NCBI GenBank assembly: GCA_039545335.1
Contig: BCIN01000003.1
Span: forward strand, 744,001-808,000
Length of the DNA: 64,000 bases
Source: Kondoa subrosea
Taxonomy: Eukaryota
Reading direction: 5' to 3'
A program made the translations under genes and the position numbers. Positions 4,458 through 48,025 of the stretch are shown one piece after another. A model generated the notes under the pieces. The model did no database searches. It saw only the letters and a program-made list of their open reading frames with translations, and was not told where the DNA came from. The stretch's first letter is position 1. Every line of letters begins with the position of its first letter.

Positions 4458-6576
4458 ATGTTGCTACTACTGCAACTGTGGCTTGCTGGCTTCTGTACAG
4501 CTGCTGCAACTTACGCTCGCAAGCAACCTACTGTCAAAATCACCGCCTTATCAGGTACCACATTCTTGTAAGTCTGCGCTTTATTGTCGGTCAGAAGTAA
4601 GGCTAATGTGAGAGGCTGATTAGTGGATTAACAAATACTGAAACCAAGATCGATATCTTTGCTGGCATACCTTTTGCGCAAGCACCAGTTGACGATCTTA
4701 GATTGGTCGAACCGATTCCATTCACTTACAATGGTACAGACGTTCAAGCAACTACCTTCAGTCCAGCTTGTATTTCTCCCGCTGCTCCTTCGACAGATAT
4801 AATGGCTTCCCGGATAGACGAAATGTCAGAAGATTGTTTGACACTCAATATCTTCCGTCCAACCGGTACTCGACCTAGTTCAAAATTAGCAGTCATAGTT
4901 TGGATCTATGGCGGTGGATTTATGGGTGGAAGTTCATATAAATACAACCCCACTCAACTTATCAGATCGTCTATCGCACAAGAGGAACCAATCATTTTCG
5001 TCTCCATCAATTACAGAGTTGGGATTCTAGGCTTTGCTAATGGAAGACAAGCTCAGGAAAACAAAGCCACAAATTTGGGATTGCTGGACCAAGAAATGGC
5101 AACGCAATGGGTGATTGATAACATTCAGGCTTTCGGTGGTGATAAAAAGAGGGTTACATTGGCTGGTCAAAGTGCTGGAAGTGTCAGTGTAGCTTGGCAT
5201 CTTTTGAGGAATAGGTCAGTCGAGATTCGCTGAAGTAGAAATTTCAATGTCTTATGCGCTTTGATTATAATGTAGACTACCTATCGCTGGCGCAATACTT
5301 GAGTCTGGCACAGCAAACACGTGCGTGTCGGAAAGATTGTTCTCTGCATTGAGATCGATCTGACCTTGTGTGCACAGTCTGTCAGCGGTCACTCCTCGAG
5401 ACAGACAATCAGTATATGATGCAGCGGCAAACGTAGCTGGATGCCTCGATCCTGCGACATCTTTTGCCTGTCTTCGCGCTTTGCCATTGAAAGATCTTCT
5501 TGCTGCACAAAAGCAATCGAGATTATCCGCTTTTCCTTATGTTCCTGTACGTCAATTCTTTCCCCTTCATTCAATTCGCATACTAAATTTCCACTAGACA
5601 ATCGACGGACGCTTCTTAAGTCGTACTCCAGATGCTATGATGCGTTCAGGTTCATTTCGTAAAGTGGTCAGTCGACTCGTATTTTCCCGCTTTCTAAGAC
5701 TCACCACAACTCATGCTGTAGCCGATTCTGGCTGGTAGCGTTGTGGATGAAGGAACTGCTTTCTTGCCGCATAATCGACTTTATCTCGACAGAACAGATG
5801 ATCAAATCAGGGCTTATCTGAAGAACTTGGTCTACAAATCTTCGGATTCCACAATCGAGAAATTGGTTGCTTCATATTCTGATGCGCCAGCTGCTGGTTC
5901 ACCGCACGGGACTGGCGATAACCTCTTTCGTCAACCTTTGGGATGTGAGTCTGTGCCTATATGTGGGACGAAAGTCGACTGACGGTGGACTATGCAGACA
6001 AGAAGTTTGCCGCCGTTCTTGGAGATGTACTCATGCACGGTCCTGTACGAAGTCTGCTCAAGAAAACTTTGGATCATGGTGTCCCAGCTTTCGGTTATAT
6101 CGTCAGTGTTCCCTGTATTAACAGCTCCAGCGAAACTGAACAGGAATTATTCAGTTCGACGGTGTTAGAACAGCTAATCCCAGTCGTCGTGGAGGTAAGA
6201 TGATTAGGTCGTTCAGCGTGATCAATCTGACTGCTTTCCCAGTCACACATGGCGCGGAACTCAGCTATCTATTCCCGAGTGAAGATACTCTAGACGACCA
6301 GAGGCTACTAGTGCAGCGAATGCATACCTATTGGATCAATTTCATCAATCATCAAGACCCAAATGTATGCAAGTCATGTAACCGTATGTTAAAGAAAATG
6401 CTTTTGCTTAGGTTAGGGCTGATTGAGTGATGGTAGGTCTGAGAGTATGGCCAGAATACAATAATCAGAAACAGCCGATACTCAATATTACGGCGAGTCT
6501 CTCAATGCCAATCGTTCGCAACACATTTAGAAAACAGTCAATCAATTTGATTGCTCGCAACCCGTTGCTAAAGTGA
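4458..6576 (+). CDS. Secreted type-B carboxylesterase/lipase
   Basis: Signal peptide, GIPFAQAP, SEDCLTLNI, WIYGGGF, nucleophile GQSAG, acid DEG and His THGAEL; multi-exon. Confidence 0.92.
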
Positions 6577-34294: not shown

Positions 34295-37200
34295 CTAGAA
34301 TATCAGATCTCCCTTCGGTTCCAGCTCTAGACGCTTCTTGCTCTCCATCTCGACCAAGACGGTCCATTGCAGCTTGCCAATCGCTTCTGCTTTCAATGCT
34401 CTTGCTTCCTTCAAGCTCTCTACTGCCGATCCTTCGCCCAGATTCTCAATAAGCTTGGCCAAGACTTGTAAAGCAGTTCCGAATCTTTTCGCTCGAATGT
34501 GATCTTTTGCAACTTGCAGAGCGAAATCATTGTCAGAAGTCTCATTCTCTACCCATTTTCGGTAAGAGTTCATAAGGGAAGCGTAATCTGGGAAGGGAGC
34601 GGTAGGCGAAGGACTTCTTTCGTTCGTTACCGCCTCATAACTTGCTTCCGTCGACGCGTCCTCTTCCCTTGTTTCGCGGGAGAAGAGAACTTTGGCTTTT
34701 CTGTTGAAAGCAAGCAGAAGTGCAGCCTTTTCATCTGAAACTTTCTTCGCGGCTTTCCGCTCTGCAGCAGTATCTTTGGATTTCTGAGGTAGACCATTCG
34801 CACGAGCCAGAGCGTCCACATCGATGTAAGAAAGAATTGCATCGGCGGCTTGATTGATAAGATCTTCTCGAGAGCGATCGCCAGATTTGTCTTTTAGCGA
34901 TTCGAGCTTTGCGACAAGTAGAGGCAGATGCTGAGGATGTTCTTTGAGGAGTAGGTCCAGATAACTCGACTTCTCCTTGTCATCTTTGATCTTCTTAGCC
35001 ATCTCTATCTGCAGGTCCACAAGCAACTGCTTCTCCTGGTCTTTCTCGTTCTCTTTCTTGTCTTCAGGTGCTTTAGTTGGTAGTGCATAGAAGGCAGGGC
35101 GACCAAGCTTGCTCGCATCTCCCGTCAAGGCGAACTTGCCGACAAGAAGATCTCCCGCTGAAGCATCTTTGTAGAGATCTGAGCTGGCCTCTGAAGGTAT
35201 GCTAGCTTTTACGACAATAGATCGTAGCTAAACTGCAGTGTCAACCAATGGAATGCAGTGATCCTATGACTTACTTCTGACGGCTTGACCTTGACTCCCT
35301 CGAATTTAGCAGGCTTCTCCGCTGTCAAACCATCATACCGATCTCGATAGAAATTGAATGATAATCCTTTTGCTTTTCCGTCGAGTTTTGCGTCGAGAGA
35401 TATTAGAAGTCCTTTGTTGGCTTCCAAAATCTTGACTTCATGGTGTAACAGACTCATCCGCAGAGTATAGTCGCCCTTATCTAGATCAGCTATCTCTTTA
35501 TCGTACATATCAATGTACTTGACAATGCGACCATTCTTGTCTGTTAGAACTCCAAGAACAGCAAATGGACCATCGTAAAGATGATTTGAGACAGCAGAAC
35601 GGAAAGTAATCGACGTCTTTTTGGTGAGCTTGACTTCGTACGAAAGTAGGAGCTGGTATAGCGACTTTTGACTTGGGAGGTCGTTTCTTGTGGACAGACT
35701 GGCGATTTTAGATGACTTTGGTCGCAGCATTTTCCGACGAGATTCTATGAAATTTCATCATCAGCCTTCAAATGGGTCAACAGCCGCATCTGCTTACCAA
35801 ATTTGATAGAAGGCTGCAAATTCTCAGGTCTGACCGATCCTATGACAGGAATTTCCCTCAAGTCATCTTCACCGAGCATTAATGTGTCATAACCCGAATG
35901 CAAGCCATGAAATTCGACAGCTACTTCGATATCTGCTCGTCCAATTGCATTCCAAGCTTGAGTAGCGCAGATTTCAAGCGCTGCACCTCCAGTTACGTTG
36001 AACTTTCTAGTGATTGGTTCTCCAGCATTCGCGAGGGAGAAAACATACGATTGTTCGGTTTGACTTAAGCGTTGCAGAGGCAAGACTTGCACACAATGTA
36101 ACCAAAATTGAATTGGCGTAGGATGATTAGCAGAAGTAATCTTGACTTCAGCATAAGTAGCGCCCTCGGGAACGGCAACAAAGTGTCTCTTCAGGGTGCC
36201 AGAAGTATAAGAATGTTCGAATTTGTAAGAAGGTGAAGAGAGGAGATCAGGCTTAGCTACAGTAACAGGAATGACGAGAAGAGTGCGGTTATCGTGAATG
36301 ACTTTGATCTGAGCTGTATTCAAACCACTTTCAAGCTGAGAGGGATCGACCTTGATAGCGAATGTACGACCATTGCCAGCCAGAGCGAGGAAAGAAGGTA
36401 CTGAAACCCAAGGTTGTGTAGCTGTAATCGAGCATTCAAGATCGACTTCGTACAGCTTCGATGTCTCTTCCTCCTTAAATCTAGGTGTGATTTCGACCTG
36501 AAATTGCTGAATACTCTGAGTATTGTGAGCTTCTCGTAGGTAAACTCCACGCATAGCTTCTCCGCGTCCAACAGGTGTGACCTTGACCTCGAATTCGGAA
36601 TCTTCAACAGCTACATCTTTGTGTTCGAGCAGATAATCATAGGCCTTCTCAATTTGTGAAAGGCCAACGTTGAAGGGATCACCAATATCCTTTGAGGTCA
36701 TTTCAATAGCTTTCTTGACCCGAGCTGGTGTCCAAGCGATCTTGTCTGCCTTCAGAGCCGATAGAAGCAGACTGATTGCACCACATGTATTCGGTGCGCT
36801 CATGCTCGTCCCGTTCATCAATTCTGAACTGGCCTTTAGCAAATCGGAAAACCTCATGCACATAGGCACTTACGCTGCTGATGCAAATTGTACATTGGTA
36901 CACCTGTGATAGCTGCACCCTAAAGCCAGTACATGCATCAGTATATTTCCCATCTATCGGACAGATTACTCACTGGAGAGTAGACAGAGACACCCACGGC
37001 CCCATCGGCTGTAGGACCTCTACTAGACCAAGTATAGGGTGAAGAGGGGACTTTCTCCAGTAACGAGTACATCGCAGCTTGCATAGCTGGACTTTCGTAT
37101 GCTCCAATAGAGAACACTGCATCACCTGCAGCTGGAGCACCGATTGTAGAAAGAGCTGGACCAGCATTGCCTCTGAAGCCCGCTATCAGCCCTCAATCAT

Positions 37201-38573
37201 TGGGTGAAAGAGAAAGGAAAATTACGCAGAGGTGACAAAGATCACATCCCTCTTTCGAATGACTTCGTTGACCAATTGTTCAATGAAAGCGCCTTTCCTT
37301 TCCATCATCCAAGCGCTATCTTCACCGAAAGACATGTTTGCAATATCACAACCTGAATCTAAGATTGTCTTGCTTGCTCTAAGTAGAGCTTGTTGAGTTT
37401 CCATATTGGAGACTCGAGGATCTCCAATGCGCAAAGAAACAATTTCCACGCCTGGAGCCACTCCATTAAGTTCTGGTTTGTCTTTGTGTTCTGATGCGAT
37501 AATGGAAGCGACATGAGATCCATGAGAGCCGGACACTGAAAGGTCCTGCCTTCAACATCAAAGCTGGCCATGTAAGATGAAACTTACACGTTACAATCGA
37601 AAGGATATCGCCATCTTCGTAAAAGTTGAAAGAGTAGCTTAGTAGATCTTGAGTTCCGAATCGTTCATAATGTTTTTCTATCTTGTAATCCGTCATTGGT
37701 TTCTGTTTGCTTAGATCAAGGACATAAGGTGAACCATCTTCATTAAACAGCGGTATGGTTTCTTGTTCTCCTTCACCACCAGCCAGAACAGCTCGATGAT
37801 TCTTTCCATCATGCCATGAAATGACTTCAATCACAGGTCCAGCATCTTCTGTCTGGGTTCGCAGATCTTGTAGAACGGCAATCCGATCTTCCAAATCTTT
37901 CTTGATTAACTTTTCCTGCTCCTTTTCGCTCTCGTCAGGCTCTTTAGGTTCCTCAACATCCTGTTTCTTTGCATCCGGATCGATCCCTTCCTTCTTTTTC
38001 TTTCCCTTTTTTGTTTTCTCTTGTTCAAAAGCCGAAAGATCTCCATAAGCTTTACTCAATAGTCCAGCATACTGTACATCAAACTTCTCTTTCCTCTCTC
38101 CCTTTCTTCGTCTTATCAGATCAGAAGGCCATAATTCCCAAGCTCTTTTGTAACCAGTTTTCCAAATATTGGTGGGATTAGACCAAGATTTCGAAGCAGC
38201 TAGTATTCTTCCAGTAGGGGAAGGCAAGTAGATCAGGTCTTCTGAGGGTTTGGAAGAAGAAGAAGAAGGAGCTGAAGAAAGGGGTTCAACTGTCGAAAGA
38301 GCAACATCCCCTGCTGATGTACAATCTATGAGATCGACTAGACAATGAGACAATCCATATGTAGCAGGATCCACGCCCGTCTGATGCATCGAAATACTTC
38401 ATCAGATCTTGTGAATGCGATAAGACAAACAAACGCACATCTAGGACAGCAACGCGAATGCCTTTGCCATTGTGACCAGTACGAGTGATGAATGTATCTG
38501 CCTGAGTCTCTGCTTTGGGTAACAGACTTGCGGAGGGGAAGGGAGCTAGATTAGAAGTTGATGACGAGGACAT
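34295..38573 (-). CDS. TPP2: Tripeptidyl-peptidase II (S8 subtilase)
   Basis: LLPKAETQA, GKGIRVAVLD|TGVDP, HGSHVAS, LRIGD, ANMSFGE, MNGTSMSAPN and RGVYLRE. Confidence 0.93.
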
Positions 38574-40232: not shown

Positions 40233-43200
40233 TCAATTATGTTCCTTTCTCTGCAACACACCATCAATGGGGTACTTCAATGGAGAACCGTGTAGACGCA
40301 CGCTTTCGAAATCATCCGGCTTGTTGTCTTGCAACACGGACATCAAAGCCTCTACACCCTTCAAGCCCAGCGAGTTCTACAGCAAAGAGTAATCAGCAGG
40401 TATTCTATATGTACAGAAACAAGGAAGCAATTCAAATCACCTTAGGGAAGCACACATATTGTGGATCACTCTCAGCACCTATAGAAACATGTCAGAGGTC
40501 GACGAAATGGAAAACAAAGTCTGGCATACCGAATTTCTCCTAAAGGCGGCGGAACAGCGTCAGAGCAATTCAGTGACGATAGAAGAGGACCCTACCTTGA
40601 ATCCCGCTCTATCCAGTAGATTAAATTGCTTGACAATAGCTCCATATGTCTTTGATAGCAGTTTTATCCTCATACCCCTGGATTCTACATAAGCAACGCT
40701 GATGAAGCACTACAGATTACAAACGCACCAGTCTTTACCAATCGGCGTGAGGGCAGGCGGTCTAGGCATGAACATCAGTAAAAGAGTATGAAGTACCAAG
40801 TCACTGCACTCACGCAGCTCCTCCAAAGGTTGCGTTGTTGACACCTGATTTGCCCATTGTGTCAATAGCATGGAACATGATCATTTCAATTGTTCCAGCG
40901 GGTGCATTAGGGAAATCGAGCGAATATTTGACTTGGAAACCATATTGTTTAGCTAATTGCGCAAGTACAACCAGACCAACGAGCTGTATGTGACCGAAAG
41001 AGCAAACATCAGCCAGAGATGATGCTCCTTGCGGTCGACTTACGTTGTCATCCTTATCCGTTGCATAGAAATATCGCCTATGTTCCGGATCATCCCAAGG
41101 TCGCAGCGAAGCAGTGTACATCTGGATGGTACGAAAGAATTAGCAAAGATCGGACTTATCCAAGGTTTACATTACCTGCGTCCCTGTCCTCTTCGACTTC
41201 CAAGCCTTCATCTGTACTTCGAGTTTTTGCTTGAGCTCTTGCGAAAGTTCAGCATCAGCAGTGTGAATCTTGACTCCTTCTCTTTCTGCGCGACTGATCT
41301 TGGCTCGCAACTGCTTCTCGGCTTGATCGAGATTGACTTTTCTAGGATCTATTCGTTGTTCGGCAGCGGCAATCAGACAGCTCCATCCAAGTTCTTCTCC
41401 TACAGCTTTCTGCGTCGCATCATCTACTGAAGCAAAGACGATCTTGAGCTTCTGAGATTTGAGATAATGAGTGAAAGCTTTAACGACTTCAACAAGTTGA
41501 GAATCGTCGCAAAGAGGTCTCCCCCAACATATCGCGTAGCCAGAAGAAGCCTGTTATACTATCAGCTCTGAATCTATCAATAGCTTGAAGACTTACTCTA
41601 TAGCCGCAAATCGCACCAGTCTCGGTGTGTTGCCATGTTGACCAATAAGGATCGAACCAAGATGTCGCAGCAGAGTCACCATAAGCGGGAATGAGATCAG
41701 ACAGTTTAGGTAGAGACGGTCTATCTCCAAGATCTCTCTTCTTGACAAATTCGAGTGTACTGAGAGCAGGTCCACGTAGGGCATCACCATCAGCAGGTCT
41801 GAAGACAACATCTTCAATTTCTTTGTCTGTTCGAGGGAAGGAACGAGGATCTTTAGGATAAAGGGAGGCCCAGCGAATGTTGCCGAGTTTGAGGAAAAGG
41901 AAGACGACTCGTTCTAGACCGATACCTCCGCCTCCATGAGGAGGCATGCCTTGTCTGAAACCGGAAACATAGTCTTGCATGGTGTTTGGATCAATTCCAG
42001 CTTCTTTCATTCTCTTTTCTAGCATTGGCGCATTGTGAATACGCTGACCGCCGGACAGAATCTCTTCACCACGGATGAAGAAATCGCAAGAGTTAGAGAG
42101 CTTAGGATCTTCCGCATCAGGCATGGCTGGACAAGGAAGAAAACACATATTAGCCAAGGCTGCTGAGGATGCTCGTTATGCACTCACTGTAGAAGGGTCG
42201 CGCATCCAGAGGGAATTTATCTATTCACTTATTGTCAGCACGAGTGTACGAGTTGAGGACCAGACTTACCTAGAATGTAATAGTCGGTCCCGTATTTCTC
42301 CTTGACCAGCTGACCCAATTTCCTTTCAGTTGCAGTACTAAAGTCCTCATATTCAGGAATAGGTTCATCGTTTTCTTTCCAGCCAGAATCGTTGAGTAGC
42401 TTCACACCATCCTTGAAATGCAATCGAACAGTCTTTTCAGGGAAGACCAAATCTTCCGAAGGGTAAAACTTCCTAACGGTATCCAATTCTCTTCGGTAAT
42501 CAGACTGCAAGCCTCTGAAGATGGATTTGAGCGCATTATCGAGCATATCGACAACTTCATGGTAATCTTCTTCGATAGTCATTTCGAGATCCAGACCAGT
42601 AAATTCAGTCAAATGACGATGAGTATTCGAGTTCTCAGCACGGAAAACAGGACCAATTTCATACACTCGTTCCAAATCTGCTGCAATAGCCATTTGTTTA
42701 CCCAATTGAGGTGATTGGGCTAAATAAGCTGCTCGACCAAAGTAATCCACTTTGAAGACTGAAGCGCCAGATTCGGTTCCTCCTCCTTGGAATTTACTTG
42801 AATGAATTTCGGTGAACTTTTGCGAGTCGAGATATGCACGGAAGTAGCGACCAACACCAGCTTGAATGCGGAAGATAGCTTGAGAAGCGTCTCCTCGTAG
42901 ATCGATCAGTCGATTTTCAAGTCTTACTTGGTTGGATATCGAAGCAGCTGCATCTCCACCCTGTCGAAGACATGAGCTTAATTACAACATCCATCAAACT
43001 CAGCTTACCGAGTTGGTATGAAGTAAAGCTCGGTCGATATCTTCCACATGAACAGGCAGCGCTTCTGTTACGGTGCCAACAACGAAGATCTGTTGAAACC
43101 GATGATAGTGAGCTATATTACAAAGCACAGAAACATCGAGACCAACCTGATCTATCATGACTTCAACTTGATGTATCGTAGCACTATGTACTTCGTGATC

Positions 43201-44059
43201 CTTGCTCTTTGGAGTTTGCAGGATACCCTTGACGAGAACAGTGGTTTCTCTCGGTAATCGTTCAGTCCATCTAACCATATTTTGCGATACTTTGTCTTCT
43301 CTTACTGTGAGTACACCTTGTACAGTGTTGTAGTGTTGACGGAAGACAATGAAAGCGAGATTAGCGCTCTTTGGCCTGATGTGATGAATTCTAGCTCGGA
43401 AGACTACAACGTCGCCTTCTGATTTCTTGGCCATATCTTCAACATCATCTCTTTGGAATTCTGAAAGCCATGCGTTAAGCTTAACCAAGGCAGATGAAAC
43501 GGATGAGACTAACTTCTAGGCTCGGTCTTGCGAACAACAGCGAATTCACCATAATTGACATTGAGTTTATCCTGCCTTACAATATTAGCACAAACAGGGA
43601 CTAGACGTGGTGTTGACAAACAGAATCGTAAGCTTCCCGATGTTGTCTATCGATTTCAGCAGCTTCTTCACGAGCTTTCTGTCTTCTCTCTTCTTTGGCC
43701 TGTCGCTTAGCCTTTTTCTTCTCTAGAGCCTCATCTGTATGATGACCATTACCGGAGCTAGAATCAGAGGAAGTAGAAGATTTGCGAGAATTGTTCGGTC
43801 TAAGCGGTTGAGGTACAATTCGGTCAATCAGAGACTTGTGATGCTCTTTGTGAGCTCCATGGGTTCCGTGAGCGCCATGAGGAGGAGTAGCATGACCACT
43901 TCTATGCGAGTCGCTCGTGCTGTGCCGCGGGAAAGGATCTTGTCCGTCCATTGAAGTCCGAGGTGACGAGCTTTCGGACTCCTTATGGTGTTTCTTGTCA
44001 TCCTTGCCGCCGTGATGCAGCAGCTTTGAGGCGGCCTTCATGAGAGGATTCGGCGCCAT
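40233..44059 (-). CDS. erdS: Aspartyl-tRNA synthetase-DUF2156 fusion (ErdS-type ergosteryl-aspartate synthase)
   Basis: OB fold (FRARIHHIR), LAQSPQLGKQ, motif 2 FRAENSNTHRHLTEF and motif 3 GGGIGLERV. These are followed in frame by IPAYGDSAATSWFD, ICWGRPLC, QVKYSLDFPNAPAGTIE, ATFG and KFGAESDP, typical of the DUF2156 aminoacyl-transferase. Confidence 0.88.
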
Positions 44060-44315
44060 GGCTGATACAGGTAATTGGTGCAAGAAAAAAGCCTCATTTT
44101 AATATTTTCGAAAGGTTGATTCTTGGAAATCGGCATTAACAACACTAGCTGAGTAAGTCAACCGGGAATGAGCAGAGGTGACAGAGGGGCCTCAAATCAA
44201 TTGTAAGGTGATACCGCTGCCTTTGAGACTGCTCTTCCTTCCTAAAGCGATCAAGCTAGCAAGCAGCGGCCGATGCGTCATTAAAAAACGAAGCGTCCAT
44301 CTAAAGCTCTAGGGA

Positions 44316-46192
44316 TTATTGTGCTACTGCGACAAGAGACCTGAACCAAGGTTCTGCAATTATATGCCAGAAATGCTCTTTGACTCCTCGATTCCCTGAT
44401 CAAACGCTCAGCAATTTAGAGATTGAAAGTACGCTTCAAAGCAACTTACACCATGACACTGTCAAGCAGTCATGCACTCCATCGGGTATTACATAGGCAG
44501 TCGTGTCTACTCCAGCCAACTCTAAAGAGTTCTTCAGTCGAGAAATTTCTTCGCTCAGAACTTCAGCGGATCCCCAAGAAATGAGCTAGCGTTGGCGCAT
44601 TAGCATTGAGAAAGCCCAGGATCAGAGAGCTCTCGGCTTACAGTCCTGGGGAATGAAGCAAACATCTTCGCATCGTGCTGAAACTTCAGGTTAGCAGGTG
44701 ACATGTATTCATTGAGAAAGAGGCTTGGTAGTTCTTCTTTTGTTCGATTACCAGCTAAAGCTGCACGATATAGAGCTACTCGCATCATGAGTAATCACGA
44801 AGCTGTCAAATGTGTGAGGACAAACGAGACATTGCTTTCCGATTCAGGTAATCTGTGATTGTCGGCCCTAACTTGAGTCCAGCTTTGCCGACACTCTCTT
44901 CATCCCAAGAAGCTATGAATCCGTTAGTAGTGACATATGCTTCTTGCACATGACATACCAGCATCGCAGGAAGGCTGTAGTAGTACGTCAGTCAAAGCTC
45001 TGCAAGCGGTCTTACTAACTCACAGATAGGACCATGCATGCTCTTGGTAGTTTATAGCTCGTCTCATCTCTGAGATACCGAAGCAGAGCAAGAACTAAAG
45101 CTCCTCCAGCTGAGTCGCCAACCAGAACTATCCGGTCTGTTTGGCAACATCTCTTCTTGAGCTCAGTATAATGTGAAGGAGCAAGGATTGCCAGACCTGG
45201 AGAGATGCCCATTACATCTACTGCATTGACGTACGATGCAAAACAATCGAGATGACAACCTGGAGCAGGCGAGAAACAGGATAGTCGGTACTCGACTGCT
45301 ATTACTGCTTGAACGCCCGGCATAGTGATTAGATTCTTGGAAATTGCAGCAGGTGTGAAATTCTAATGTCGCTAGATGAGCGAGAGCGAGATAGTATAGC
45401 ACAAAAGATCACCTACCGGTGCGGCACTAAGTAGAAAGCTGGAGTCCGACTTCAGCGAGCGTTAGATCACAAGAGCAGCGGTGTACTTACTATCCGCCCT
45501 ATGAATCGTTTGTGAAAGTATGAGTTGCAATTCGACTTCACCTAACTGAACTCACACCATGAAAGAACAGGCAGACAAGTCCGTCGGTAGTAGCAGCGAC
45601 TTCTTTCAAACTCATTTTCGGATATACATAAACACTATCCCATAGTCAGCATATCATCATAACCAGTGGATATCACTTACGGTATACCAGTTTCTTTCGC
45701 ATAATCAGATTTGAGAAAGCCTTTCAGCAAGGAAGGATCAGCAGGCTCTATTTTCTCCACATAACCTGTTCCTCTTTCATGAGCCGCTGTCTCCGTAGAA
45801 GAAGGAACAAAGGCTCACAGTCTTTCAGCTTGGAATTCTTTGGTAATTTCGTTGGATCTTTGATCGGCATTGGAAGTCTTGTTTTGGATATCAACCACTG
45901 CAAGCGATGTTCTGTAAAGAAGATACTTCATGAAGTCTACTAAATGATTATATGACCTTTCTCTTACCTGTCATAACCAGAACTGTCTCCTTCAAAGACC
46001 ATGATTTCCGCGGCCTAGTCTTCTTGGCTACCGATAACCCTGATCAATATTGATAGCAGGTTGTTTGCGAACGAATTTACGCAGGAAGATGATGCACCAG
46101 TATGGAAAGAAGACCAGCAGGCTTAGAATAGACCAAAGAAAGTAAATTTCTCGCAGAGGATGATGTGTCCAGATCCTGAGTATCAGATCCAT
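44316..46192 (-). CDS. HSL-type alpha/beta hydrolase with N-terminal membrane anchor (candidate steryl-ester/ErdH-like hydrolase)
   Basis: HG|GGY oxyanion motif split by an 8-nt exon, VEYRL, GDSAGG, WGSAEVL and GVHD. A short upstream exon near 46305 is possible. Confidence 0.82.
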
Positions 46193-46694: not shown

Positions 46695-47580
46695 TTAGAA
46701 GTAGTATACAGAATGAAGCAGCTGATGAGGATGATGAGCTTCTTGTCGTTGTAGTATGCCATCCATTTCCGCATCGACATCTTTAGCGCCTTCGATCTGT
46801 GCGGTTAGACTGACAGATCAGTCGTGGAATCGACTGTCAAGGCCTCCAACGCACAGCAGAACAGAGCTCCAACATGGCTTTACCGGCTATCAGAGCTTCT
46901 TCGACATTATCCTTGATTTCCACATTGATAACATGAACCGGTCGGTTCCCATCGCCGTTTCTCAGCAGCATATCTGTCAGAGTTCCTGCAAATTCAGCAG
47001 GAGAATATGCTGTATCAGAAAGGTACTGACCATCACAGACCGCATCGTAGCATCTTTCCTCGCAAGTAATAATCACATCCGAAGCTTGGACCACGCTACT
47101 ATCCTGCCACCTCTCGGGAGCGCTCTTGATCTTTCTATTCCGATCCAACATTGGTAATAGCCCATTCGCACTATAGAGTCTTTCATCTTGATTTCTCAAA
47201 TCCTCATATATATCGTCGTAAGGTGTACCAAAAGCATAAATGTTTGGTCGATCAGCTGCTGGTCCAGGTAATCGAACTGCTGAACCTGTACCAGCTGAAA
47301 TGACTTTATAATTTGCTCCAGCTAAAACTTTGTGTCCTTCCATTGATCGATTGTTGTTTGAAGCGCAGACGACGCAAAAAGTTAAGCGCTGTTTCTTTTG
47401 AGGTTGTTGTTCAAGTAGAGGTGTAGAAGAAGGTTGGGGTGAAGAAGTAGAAGCGACAGGTACATCTGTCGAAGGGGTTGCTGAACGACCTCTCCTTGGA
47501 TCTGCAACGGCTGCTAGACGCGGATCTGCTGCTTGTCCTTGTGCAGCACGCCGAGGATCTCGTAGACGAGGGTCGGCCAT
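46695..47580 (-). CDS. SSU72: RNA Pol II CTD phosphatase Ssu72
   Basis: [40 protein letters not shown] and NVEIKDN. Confidence 0.95.
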
Positions 47581-47661
47581 GCTGTAGAACAGTAAAGCAC
47601 TGAGTATCACTTCAGGACAACAAAATGCAAAAAAATTTGATGGAAATGGGTAATCAGAAGT

Positions 47662-47822
47662 ATCTGTATAACAAAATCGACATGCAATAACACTCCCTTT
47701 GACAGGAGGTTGCTGTCCGACAGCTCCATAGCGTATGAATTTTTTGTCAAGTCTAATCCTTTCAACGTAGAGGCCTGCGAAGCTGCGAGACCAGACTGGG
47801 TCGCACGCGCAAAGTTGAAGAA
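47662..47822 (-). ncRNA. Probable box H/ACA snoRNA in the SSU72 5'UTR intron
   Basis: Lies in intron 47582-47844. Layout is hairpin (CAAC/GTTG base, TGCGA/TCGCA upper stem), H box AAAGGA, hairpin (TGACAAAA/TTTTGTTA base), then ACA at 47667-47665. Confidence 0.7.
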
Positions 47823-48025
47823 GTTATCTGAGTCGAGCACTTACGCTGTGAGAGGAAGCCGGACAAGAGTGATGCGAATGGTTAGGGACAAAAAGCGAAA
47901 TTTATGCGATGCACTACGGCGCGAAGAGGTCGGGTCAAGAATTCGCAGTTGATACACAAGCAATGTGTGCTATGATAGTCTACATGCAGCTAATCTCTGG
48001 GCTGAGATGATCTCCATCAATCCGC

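What the first reader, a model, noticed from the sequence alone, without database searches (positions are those of the whole stretch)
40233..46192. tRNA-dependent sterol aminoacylation module: ErdS-type AspRS-DUF2156 fusion with an adjacent alpha/beta hydrolase
Seen: a complete class II AspRS continues in frame into a DUF2156-like transferase. An HGGGY/GDSAGG hydrolase with an N-terminal membrane anchor ends only 256 bp upstream on the same strand. Known: in Aspergillus, ErdS makes ergosteryl-aspartate from Asp-tRNA, and a neighbouring alpha/beta hydrolase, ErdH, removes it; as I recall, that pair is divergently oriented. Inference: this could be a basidiomycete writer/eraser pair in tandem orientation. 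The hydrolase may be an independently recruited Say1-like enzyme rather than an ErdH orthologue.
Basis: partly seen in the sequence, partly recalled or inferred. Interest (0 to 1): 0.78.

Follow-up and report, generated by a model that had tools for sequence, protein, structure and literature searches.

The report
Fungal ErdS gene with neighbouring esterase
A fungal gene for the enzyme that attaches aspartate to ergosterol lies directly behind a membrane-anchored esterase gene that is not the known remover enzyme (ErdH) but might do the same job, which remains untested.

Summary
On the minus strand, 44059-40233 encodes an intron-rich ErdS, an AspRS fused in frame to a DUF2156/aminoacyl-tRNA-transferase domain of about 1007 aa. 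It is 91% identical to an unnamed JGI protein. That near-identical protein matches the solved A. fumigatus ErdS (PDB 9W9F) at E 5e-251. A 401-aa esterase gene (46192-44316) ends 256 bp upstream on the same strand. It has HGGG, GDSAGG, a His motif and an N-terminal hydrophobic anchor.

ErdS in Basidiomycota and the erdS-erdH cluster are already published (PNAS 2020). I recovered real ErdH genes by synteny: 16 of 80 metagenome ErdS loci carry a divergent upstream PF07859 gene. Against these, the window's esterase is not an ErdH orthologue.
- It falls in a separate, well-supported clade of anchored fungal esterases that also score for Say1_Mug180 (PF10340).
- The ErdH proteins form their own clade, have no anchor and give no PF10340 hit.

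So "Say1-like, not ErdH" is supported. The "eraser" role rests only on adjacency and chemistry. Linkage is not seen in Agaricomycetes: 0 of 8 loci show it, and in 8 of 8 species the two genes lie on different contigs. No close relative's genome, own genome or RNA data could be examined. I put a functional writer/eraser pair at about 0.5 and a chance neighbour at about 0.4.

The parts
40233..44059 (-). ErdS gene (ergosteryl-3beta-O-L-aspartate synthase type). 16 exons: 44059-43622, 43571-43514, 43460-43147, 43089-43009, 42960-42270, 42220-42188, 42126-41597, 41550-41176, 41121-41044, 40983-40814, 40761-40729, 40677-40596, 40539-40530 (10-nt micro-exon), 40478-40441, 40376-40302, 40250-40233 (includes the stop).
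   Evidence: Splice model. Colinear with P0001 and 91.3% identical to it. P0001 matches 9w9f at E 4.8e-251.
43622..44059 (-). ErdS N-terminal extension, with a Lys/Arg-rich helix (EKKKAKRQAKEERRQKAREE...).
   Evidence: P0001 residues 97 onward align to 9w9f from residue 46. The role of the N-terminal helix in clamping the tRNA elbow comes from PMC13219428 (abstract and discussion passages).
43147..43460 (-). Anticodon-binding OB fold of the AspRS part.
   Evidence: PF01336 at 7.5e-06, 26.2 bits, just under the cut-off of 27. The region is covered by the alignment to 9w9f.
41840..42960 (-). Class II AspRS catalytic core (exons 5 to 7), with FRAENSNTHRHLTEF and GGGGIGLER motifs.
   Evidence: PF00152 at 2.6e-37 and 7e-23. 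Sequence shown.
40233..41700 (-). DUF2156 / aminoacyl-tRNA transferase (ATT) domain. It starts near LIPAYGDSAATSW; the Tyr codon at 41683-41681 corresponds to Afm Y637.
   Evidence: PF09924 at 1.8e-11. Matches 9w9f residues 668-793 at 1.2e-15. Residue mapping through P0001.
44060..44315 (.). 256-nt spacer between the hydrolase stop and the ErdS ATG. It must hold the hydrolase 3' end and the ErdS promoter and 5'UTR.
   Evidence: Coordinates. The ErdS record of relative P0001 sits on a 3185-nt contig for a 3024-nt coding region, so if that contig is a transcript the UTRs are short. This is an inference.
44316..46192 (-). Esterase gene of the Abhydrolase_3 / Say1_Mug180 type, 401 aa. 14 exons: 46192-46081, 46039-45968, 45911-45819, 45765-45681, 45634-45556, 45498-45491 (8-nt micro-exon), 45438-45417, 45362-45197, 45136-45024, 44974-44959, 44912-44826, 44778-44642, 44585-44450, 44395-44316.
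   Evidence: Model B: 13 GT..AG introns of 41-60 nt. The 60-nt in-frame intron is supported by P0121, which lacks those 20 residues. The N-terminal exons are supported by the family alignment. blastp to P0144 gives 33% identity at 5e-53 over residues 11-377.
46081..46192 (-). Hydrolase exon 1: a short N-terminus and a hydrophobic anchor (residues 19-37), followed in exon 2 by the basic RLSVAKKTRPRKSWSL motif.
   Evidence: Kyte-Doolittle 2.17 over 19 residues. There are 7 K/R and 1 D/E in the 20 residues after the anchor, against 2 and 2 in the 15 residues before it. The motif is shared with P0144, P0139, P0122 and P0151.
45024..45136 (-). Exon with the nucleophile elbow GDSAGG (Ser221 codon at 45113-45111) and RYLRDE.
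   Evidence: PF10340 at 24.6 bits (cut-off 21) and PF07859 at 24.7 bits (cut-off 25) on this 37-aa exon.
44450..44585 (-). Exon with the putative acid residue (Glu338 in GSAEVL, codon 44564-44562) and the catalytic His368 (GVHD, codon 44474-44472).
   Evidence: Family alignment A3: the column holding the E of (A/K/R)E, and the HD motif, are shared by P0144, P0139, P0128, P0142 and P0159. The assignment as a triad is an inference.

Best explanation
The locus holds a working ErdS and, directly upstream in tandem, an intact membrane-anchored esterase from a different branch of the hormone-sensitive-lipase family than ErdH.

ErdS (shown by homology). The AspRS half charges tRNA-Asp. The fused DUF2156/ATT half moves the aspartyl group onto the 3beta-OH of ergosterol, giving ergosteryl-aspartate.

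Esterase (shown). It has the HGGG oxyanion motif, a GDSAGG nucleophile and a His motif. It belongs to a fungal clade that scores for both Abhydrolase_3 and Say1_Mug180. It is not an ErdH orthologue.

Esterase (inferred). Its basic stretch after the anchor predicts a catalytic domain on the cytosolic membrane face. Its kin relate to an enzyme that cleaves sterol 3-O-esters. I therefore take it as the most likely local Erg-Asp remover: a non-orthologous stand-in for ErdH that came to lie next to erdS independently.

The ErdS part I hold at about 0.95 and "not an ErdH orthologue" at about 0.9. The eraser role, which is what the confidence value refers to, I hold at about 0.5.
For: ErdS identity:
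- Pfam domains on the exons.
- One open frame spans the AspRS/ATT junction.
- 9w9f matches.
- 91.3% identity to P0001, which carries PF00152 at 231 bits and PF09924 at 80.9 bits.
- Over 100 listed fungal AspRS-DUF2156 fusions, many from Agaricomycetes.
- Of the 8 CCA-pocket positions whose mutation hurt A. fumigatus ErdS, 6 are kept (W785, R789, G791, Q793, F913, K916). S644, W645, D647, Q836 and K838 of the sterol cavity are also kept (residue list from PMC13219428 passages; mapping).

The hydrolase is intact: 13 canonical introns, an open 401-aa frame and its motifs.

The hydrolase is not ErdH:
- blastp of the hydrolase to 9 synteny-defined ErdH proteins gives 22-31% identity at E 1e-5 to 1e-2. 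To P0144 and P0139 it gives 31-33% at E 5e-53 and 7e-50.
- All 5 syntenic ErdH proteins scanned lack a PF10340 hit. Of 6 longer relatives of the window's esterase (P0144, P0139, P0128, P0134, P0122, P0142), 5 pass the PF10340 cut-off. The 116-aa fragment P0121 gave none.
- In the tree, the ErdH clade has SH-aLRT 100 and the anchored fungal clade that includes the window protein has 99. The two are separate.
- A hydrophobic N-terminal peak above 1.6 is found in 0 of 9 ErdH proteins, in the window protein, and in 8 of 14 family members.

Plausibility of the eraser role:
- ErdH itself is a PF07859 enzyme clustered with erdS (PMC7334510). It is upstream and divergent in 15 of 21 ascomycete-like loci with at least 2.5 kb of upstream flank.
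- Say1 deacetylates sterols, and the ErdS authors themselves liken Atf2/Say1 to ErdS/ErdH (PMC7334510 discussion passage; PMC8953178 passage).
- Named species show only 1-3 genes of this clade each. Immediate adjacency by chance should therefore be well under 1% per genome. This is my estimate, not a computed result.
- The 30 Atlas clusters nearest to ErdH are all commonest in Ascomycota.
Against: There is no evidence of conserved linkage.
- Of the Agaricomycete-like ErdS loci with 5-8 kb of upstream flank (L003, L007, L009, L010, L012, L020, L021, L023), 0 of 8 hold either hydrolase type anywhere in the locus. The tblastn queries were 10, 9 and 46 proteins.
- In 8 of 8 named species that have both an ErdS and a listed member of this esterase clade, the two lie on contigs of different length. 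The species are Trametes cingulata, T. meyenii, T. versicolor, T. polyzona, Postia placenta, Epithele typhae, Mycena capillaripes and Gloeophyllum trabeum.
- The best named full-length homologues come from Mixia, Meredithblackwellia and a Microbotryomycetes sp.. No ErdS from these appeared among the 120 listed of 1956 hits. The clade therefore exists without ErdS, and its ancestral job is something else.

Other points:
- The orientation is tandem, so there is no shared divergent promoter.
- No locus among the 80 is close to the window (at most 49% identity).
- Two CCA-pocket positions differ (K790T, H795Y). Mutations at those positions (K790E, H795A) lowered activity in A. fumigatus. The changes are shared with P0001, and P0002 has H and Y there.
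- PMC7334510 implies that Cryptococcus has an ErdH.
Confidence: 0.5

Rival explanations
1. Chance neighbour. ErdS is real, but the upstream gene is an ordinary ER or membrane esterase of the Say1_Mug180 / Abhydrolase_3 clade. It would act on steryl acetate or another ester, and its position next to erdS would have no functional meaning.
For: - The clade is widespread in Asco- and Basidiomycota regardless of ErdS.
- It is unlinked to ErdS in 8 of 8 species and 0 of 8 loci checked.
- The surrounding genes are unrelated housekeeping genes: TPPII, Ssu72, an aspartyl protease, a RasGAP.
- The genome is compact, so gaps of a few hundred bases between unrelated genes are normal here.
Against: With 1-3 clade members per genome, a chance hit on one of the two flanking positions is rare. 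This is my estimate. The neighbour also belongs to the one Pfam family that holds ErdH, and to the sub-type tied to sterol 3-O-ester cleavage.
Confidence: 0.4
2. The hydrolase is a diverged true orthologue of ErdH whose orientation flipped by a local inversion.
For: It has the same Pfam superfamily (PF07859) and sits next to erdS.
Against: - It sits in a separate clade with support 99 and 100.
- Three metagenome proteins of unnamed origin branch between the two clades.
- Ascomycetes have members of both clades: P0205 and P0212 beside ErdH. The split therefore predates the phyla.
- Different elbow: GDSAGG here against GFSAGG/GFSAGA in ErdH.
- Different C-terminal His motif: HDC here against HGWDK/HAWDK in ErdH.
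- An anchor is present here and absent in 9 of 9 ErdH proteins.
Confidence: 0.03
3. One of the two genes is a decaying pseudogene or an artefact of my splice model.
For: There is no RNA evidence for this genome. The hydrolase needs a 41-nt intron and an 8-nt exon. ErdS carries K790T and H795Y.
Against: Both frames are open across 13 and 15 canonical introns. The ErdS model matches P0001 end to end. The hydrolase exons match family motifs from the N-terminal QP(F/L)(K/R) motif to the C-terminal HD. K790T and H795Y are shared with P0001, so they are a lineage trait.
Confidence: 0.03

Closest known systems
ErdS, ergosteryl-3beta-O-L-aspartate synthase (A. fumigatus; PDB 9W9E/9W9F/9W9G; PMC7334510, PMC13219428)
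   Same: The architecture is the same: a basic N-terminal extension, an OB fold, a class II AspRS core, a linker and a DUF2156/ATT domain in one frame. The near-identical P0001 matches at E 4.8e-251. Most functionally tested residues are kept.
   Different: About 45% identity to ascomycete ErdS loci. It has 15 short introns, including a 10-nt exon. Changed positions are K790T, H795Y, R649Y and E798S. The alpha(+) helix reads LRAKISRAERE, where A. fumigatus has IARKIRRAENE.
ErdH, Erg-Asp hydrolase (A. fumigatus AFUA_1g02580, N. crassa; KEGG K24279; PMC7334510, PMC8913301)
   Same: It is a PF07859 alpha/beta hydrolase with HGGG and a Ser nucleophile, encoded immediately next to erdS.
   Different: - It lies in a different clade and is 22-31% identical.
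- Elbow GDSAGG instead of GFSAGG.
- It has an N-terminal anchor, whereas the authors predicted none for ErdH, and 0 of 9 syntenic ErdH proteins have one.
- The likely acid residue is Glu in GSAE rather than the Asp of ErdH.
- Orientation is tandem rather than divergent.
Say1 / Mug180 family (Pfam PF10340; S. cerevisiae steryl acetate deacetylase)
   Same: PF10340 is passed by the GDSAGG exon (24.6 bits against 21) and by 5 of 6 longer relatives (37-52 bits). The protein has an N-terminal membrane anchor. Some family members are annotated 'endoplasmic reticulum protein'. The family's chemistry is cleavage of an ester on the sterol 3-OH.
   Different: PF07859 scores higher than PF10340 in every relative, and PF10340 matches cover only part of the model. 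I had no yeast Say1 sequence, so orthology is untested. Say1's lumenal active site is something I recall, not something I read here. The charge pattern in the window protein suggests the opposite, cytosolic, orientation (an inference).
Bacterial MprF/aaPGS with their aminoacyl-lipid hydrolases (e.g. P. aeruginosa PA0919, E. faecium AhyD, A. tumefaciens AcvB; cited in PMC7334510)
   Same: They follow the same logic: a tRNA-dependent DUF2156 writer with a hydrolase gene next to it.
   Different: The lipid is a glycerolipid rather than a sterol. The bacterial writers lack a fused aaRS. The bacterial hydrolases are secreted or periplasmic and belong to other families.

Membership tests
ErdS (AspRS-DUF2156 sterol aspartyl synthase) | Class II AspRS catalytic core with motifs 2 and 3 | tested here: met
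   PF00152 at 2.6e-37 and 7e-23 on two exons. FRAENSNTHRHLTEF and GGGGIGLER appear in the model.
ErdS (AspRS-DUF2156 sterol aspartyl synthase) | DUF2156/LPG_synthase_C (ATT) domain fused in frame to the C-terminus of the AspRS | tested here: met
   The open frame 41489-42175 spans the junction. PF09924 at 44.1 bits against a cut-off of 27.5. 9w9f residues 668-793 at 1.2e-15.
ErdS (AspRS-DUF2156 sterol aspartyl synthase) | Residues shown by mutagenesis to matter in A. fumigatus ErdS (CCA pocket, alpha(+) helix, sterol cavity) | tested here: inconclusive
   Six of 8 CCA-pocket positions are kept; K790T and H795Y differ. Q836, K838, S644, W645 and D647 are kept. The alpha(+) helix keeps 4-5 basic residues.
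ErdS (AspRS-DUF2156 sterol aspartyl synthase) | A separate canonical AspRS elsewhere in the genome | not testable with these tools
   No genome is held for this window. There is none in the 64-kb window.
ErdS (AspRS-DUF2156 sterol aspartyl synthase) | Makes ergosteryl-3beta-O-L-aspartate | not testable with these tools
   This needs a lipid TLC or LC-MS assay.
ErdH (Erg-Asp hydrolase) | PF07859 alpha/beta hydrolase with a Ser/acid/His triad | tested here: met
   The exon scores PF07859 at 43.8 bits with the intron read through and 24.7 bits on the clean 37-aa exon. Relatives score 85-111 bits. S221, E338 and H368 come from the alignment. The acid is probably Glu rather than Asp.
ErdH (Erg-Asp hydrolase) | Belongs to the clade of the characterised or syntenic ErdH proteins | tested here: not met
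   The tree separates the clades with support 100 and 99. blastp gives E 1e-5 to 1e-2. The Pfam profile differs.
ErdH (Erg-Asp hydrolase) | Encoded next to erdS as a divergent unit | tested here: not met
   It is adjacent (256 nt) but on the same strand, upstream. The 16 syntenic ErdH genes are all divergent.
ErdH (Erg-Asp hydrolase) | Hydrolyses Erg-Asp | not testable with these tools
   This needs an enzyme assay.
Say1_Mug180 (PF10340) | Passes Pfam's gathering score for PF10340 | tested here: met
   The window exon 45024-45134 scores 24.6 bits against 21. P0144 scores 48.2, P0139 42.5, P0128 37.5, P0122 52.0 and P0142 39.2. P0134 scores 17.4, below the cut-off. The whole spliced protein could not be scanned.
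Say1_Mug180 (PF10340) | N-terminal membrane anchor | tested here: met
   Kyte-Doolittle 2.17 at residues 19-37. The motif is shared across the family.
Say1_Mug180 (PF10340) | Orthology to S. cerevisiae Say1 and steryl acetate deacetylase activity | not tested
   No Say1 sequence was returned by any search. The activity needs an assay.

The most novel reading that the evidence does not exclude
A basidiomycete lineage that lacks the ascomycete-type ErdH has independently placed a membrane-anchored, Say1-type sterol-ester hydrolase directly upstream of erdS. This would create a second, convergent writer/eraser gene pair for ergosteryl-aspartate. The eraser would be tethered to the membrane with its active site facing the cytosolic leaflet, where ErdS works.
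Probability: 0.45. Interest if true: 0.6.

Novelty: new variant of a known kind. Interest (0 to 1): 0.4.

Why it matters
Ergosteryl-aspartate is a recently found fungal lipid, and its turnover is thought to need a paired remover. Published work defines that remover (ErdH) mainly in Ascomycota. Suppose a different esterase branch does the job here. That would show that the pairing of writer and eraser, and even their clustering, evolved more than once. It would also give a membrane-anchored eraser to compare with ErdH, for which the authors predicted no membrane helix. And it would warn that presence or absence of ErdH judged by homology misses functional equivalents in Basidiomycota. If the neighbour is a coincidence, the locus is simply one more ErdS gene.

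Tried and rejected
- a protein search with the hydrolase open frame (which I later found includes an intron) against longer proteins returned nothing.
- no whole genome is held. A second ErdH, a canonical AspRS and family copy number in this organism could therefore not be checked.
- only two DNA rows were listed, both possibly the source sample. No RNA holder was listed, and I did not lay reads.
- the supplementary files of PMC7334510 were closed. Its Fig. 6A and SI, which show ErdH presence and locus layout in Basidiomycota, may bear on the claim.
- Tiwari et al. 2007 on Say1 is not held.
- there were no earlier notes on ErdS/ErdH or on this genome. The DUF2156 notes concerned phages and bacteria.
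- the first seven-row alignment was too diverse for a scan. A four-row one worked.
- a weak ErdH-like tblastn hit at window 4775-5180 (+) turned out to be a COesterase (PF00135, 1.2e-61), not an ErdH.
- Hydrolase model A, with a 154-nt intron, was dropped for model B, with two ~55-nt introns and a 93-nt exon. Model B restores family motifs.
- My first ErdS exon 11/12 junction was corrected against P0001.
- I looked for a hydrolase fragment on the same 6422-nt contig as the ErdS fragments of the P0002 cluster. None of the 10 clusters looked up matched.
- the extra alpha/beta-hydrolase domain of P0107 lies C-terminal of ErdS and belongs to another family (PF00561/PF12697), so it is not comparable.

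Full report
**What is there.** The region is eukaryotic, with short GT..AG introns, and both genes lie on the minus strand.

The downstream gene runs from the ATG at 44059 to a TGA ending at 40233. I built a 15-intron model. It is colinear with P0001, an unnamed 1007-aa JGI protein, and 917 of 1004 aligned residues are identical. That comparison corrected my exon 11/12 junction. It also exposed a last in-frame 51-nt intron (40301-40251), which gives about 1007 aa.

Pfam on single exons finds these domains:
- the OB fold (PF01336, 26.2 bits, just under the cut-off of 27);
- the class II AspRS core (PF00152, 2.6e-37 and 7e-23);
- LPG_synthase_C/DUF2156 (PF09924, 1.8e-11).

The fusion can be read directly in the DNA. 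The open frame 41489-42175 carries the end of the AspRS model and continues into sequence that aligns to residues 496-664 of the solved A. fumigatus ErdS (E 3e-44). The next exon aligns to residues 668-793. P0001 as a whole matches 9w9f at E 4.8e-251.

**Is ErdS likely active?** PMC13219428 (passages) lists residues whose mutation lowered Erg-Asp synthesis. I mapped them through P0001.
- Kept: W785, R789, G791, Q793, F913 and K916 (CCA pocket); Y637, T643, S644, W645, D647, E731, W802, Q836 and K838 (sterol cavity).
- Changed: K790T, H795Y, R649Y, E798S, T641A, S642A, N677R, E712A and C728A.
- The positively charged helix keeps four to five basic residues (LRAKISRAERE).

K790T and H795Y are shared with P0001, and P0002 has H and Y at those positions. 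They are a lineage trait rather than decay. The paper notes that K790E occurs naturally in M. oryzae, where activity is low.

**The upstream gene.** It runs from the ATG at 46192 to a TAA ending at 44316, which is 256 nt before the ErdS ATG. My final model has 14 exons and 401 aa.

A search of 1.84 billion representatives with the longest open frame gave only 46 hits. One reason is that the frame contains a 60-nt in-frame intron. P0121, a 75%-identical fragment from a relative, lacks those 20 residues.

The protein has these features:
- an N-terminal hydrophobic segment (residues 19-37, Kyte-Doolittle 2.17);
- a basic RPRKSWSL motif after it;
- HGGG+Y, GDSAGG (Ser221), GSAE (Glu338) and GVHD (His368).

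The 20 residues after the anchor hold 7 K/R and 1 D/E. The 15 before it hold 2 and 2. By the positive-inside rule the catalytic domain would face the cytosol. That is an inference.

**ErdH or not?** PMC7334510 (passages and section 10) describes ErdH as follows:
- it is a PF07859 hydrolase with an S153/D277/H307 triad;
- it has no predicted membrane helix;
- it is almost always next to erdS in divergent orientation;
- ErdS occurs in both Ascomycota and Basidiomycota.

To get real ErdH sequences I scanned metagenome contigs with a DUF2156-domain alignment. That returned 80 ErdS loci. By best named match, 50 are ascomycete-like and 30 Agaricomycete-like. None is close to the window (at most 49% identity).

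Sixteen of the 80 loci carry an upstream, opposite-strand PF07859 gene. That is 15 of the 21 ascomycete-like loci with at least 2.5 kb of upstream flank, plus L040. These genes have GFSAGG/GFSAGA elbows and HGWDK/HAWDK motifs.

Compared with them, the window's esterase is a stranger.
- blastp gives 22-31% identity at E 1e-5 to 1e-2. Against P0144 (Mixia) and P0139 (Meredithblackwellia) it gives 31-33% at E 5e-53 and 7e-50.
- Five of 5 ErdH proteins scanned score 123-162 bits on PF07859 and nothing on PF10340. Five of 6 longer relatives of the window protein pass PF10340 Say1_Mug180, and so does the window's GDSAGG exon.
- A 38-row tree puts the 9 ErdH proteins in one clade (SH-aLRT 100). The window protein sits with 20 anchored fungal esterases in another (99). 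That clade includes two ascomycete members, so the two families are old paralogues.
- No ErdH protein has the hydrophobic N-terminus (0 of 9), against 8 of 14 family members.
- The Atlas look-ups agree. The neighbours of P0144 are PF07859+PF10340 clusters from both phyla. The neighbours of ErdH are PF07859/BD-FAE/COesterase clusters, commonest in Ascomycota.

**Is the pairing functional?**

For:
- ErdH is itself a PF07859 enzyme clustered with erdS.
- The Say1 type acts on esters of the sterol 3-OH.
- Named genomes show only one to three genes of this clade, so chance adjacency should be rare. This is my estimate.

Against:
- None of the 8 Agaricomycete-like loci with 5-8 kb upstream holds either kind of hydrolase. 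I tested with 65 query proteins in all.
- In 8 of 8 named species listed with both genes, the genes lie on contigs of different length.
- The best named homologues come from species for which no ErdS was among the 120 listed of 1956 hits.
- The window's other genes are unrelated housekeeping genes.

The window's own lineage could not be tested.

**Verdict.** ErdS here is a new member of a published family. That it erases Erg-Asp is a reasonable but untested hypothesis, at about 0.5. Two full-text searches found no paper that links a Say1-type hydrolase to erdS, beyond the analogy drawn by the ErdS authors.

Noticed in passing
window 45137-45196 (-) and 40251-40301 (-): Two introns of 60 and 51 nt keep the reading frame open. 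Stop-to-stop reading therefore adds 20 and 17 false residues. The first of these weakened the searches made with that open frame.
   Followed up: yes
window 40530-40539 (-) and 45491-45498 (-): There are micro-exons of 10 nt (ErdS) and 8 nt (hydrolase). The ErdS one is supported by the P0001 alignment. The hydrolase one rests only on the HGGGY motif and the frame.
   Followed up: partly
window 4607-5233 (+): A carboxylesterase type B gene fragment (PF00135, 1.2e-61) lies about 35 kb from erdS. It gave the only ErdH-like tblastn signal elsewhere in the window and is not an ErdH.
   Followed up: yes
ErdS residues aligned to Afm K790 and H795 (exons 41550-41176 and 41121-41044): The window and P0001 have Thr and Tyr, and P0002 has His and Tyr, at two CCA-pocket positions. 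K790E and H795A lowered activity in A. fumigatus. This may mean low or altered activity in this lineage.
   Followed up: partly
L030, L042, L054, L058, L059, L074: Six of 21 ascomycete-like ErdS loci with at least 2.5 kb of upstream flank have no ErdH-type gene anywhere in the fetched 14-21 kb. The cluster is therefore not universal in that group either. L058 and L059 are near-duplicates.
   Followed up: partly
L040:144-1610 (-): A long (about 465 aa) ErdH-type gene lies divergent to an ErdS whose best named match is only 47% identical (Tulasnella). It may be an ErdS/ErdH pair from a lineage that is neither typical ascomycete nor Agaricomycete.
   Followed up: no
P0041 and P0284 (Gloeophyllum trabeum): This species has two ErdS-type proteins (878 and 950 aa) on different contigs, that is, an ErdS duplication in an Agaricomycete.
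   Followed up: no
P0107 (1380 aa, filed under Quercus suber): This gene model has ErdS followed by a C-terminal Abhydrolase_1/6 domain (residues 1101-1363). It is either a fused annotation of two neighbours or a real fusion of ErdS with another kind of alpha/beta hydrolase, probably from a fungus in the plant sample.
   Followed up: partly
window 34298-38398 (-), 46837-47823 (-): The flanking genes are a tripeptidyl-peptidase II (PF12580, PF21223, PF00082) and an Ssu72 phosphatase (7.2e-67). There are no sterol-pathway genes nearby.
   Followed up: yes
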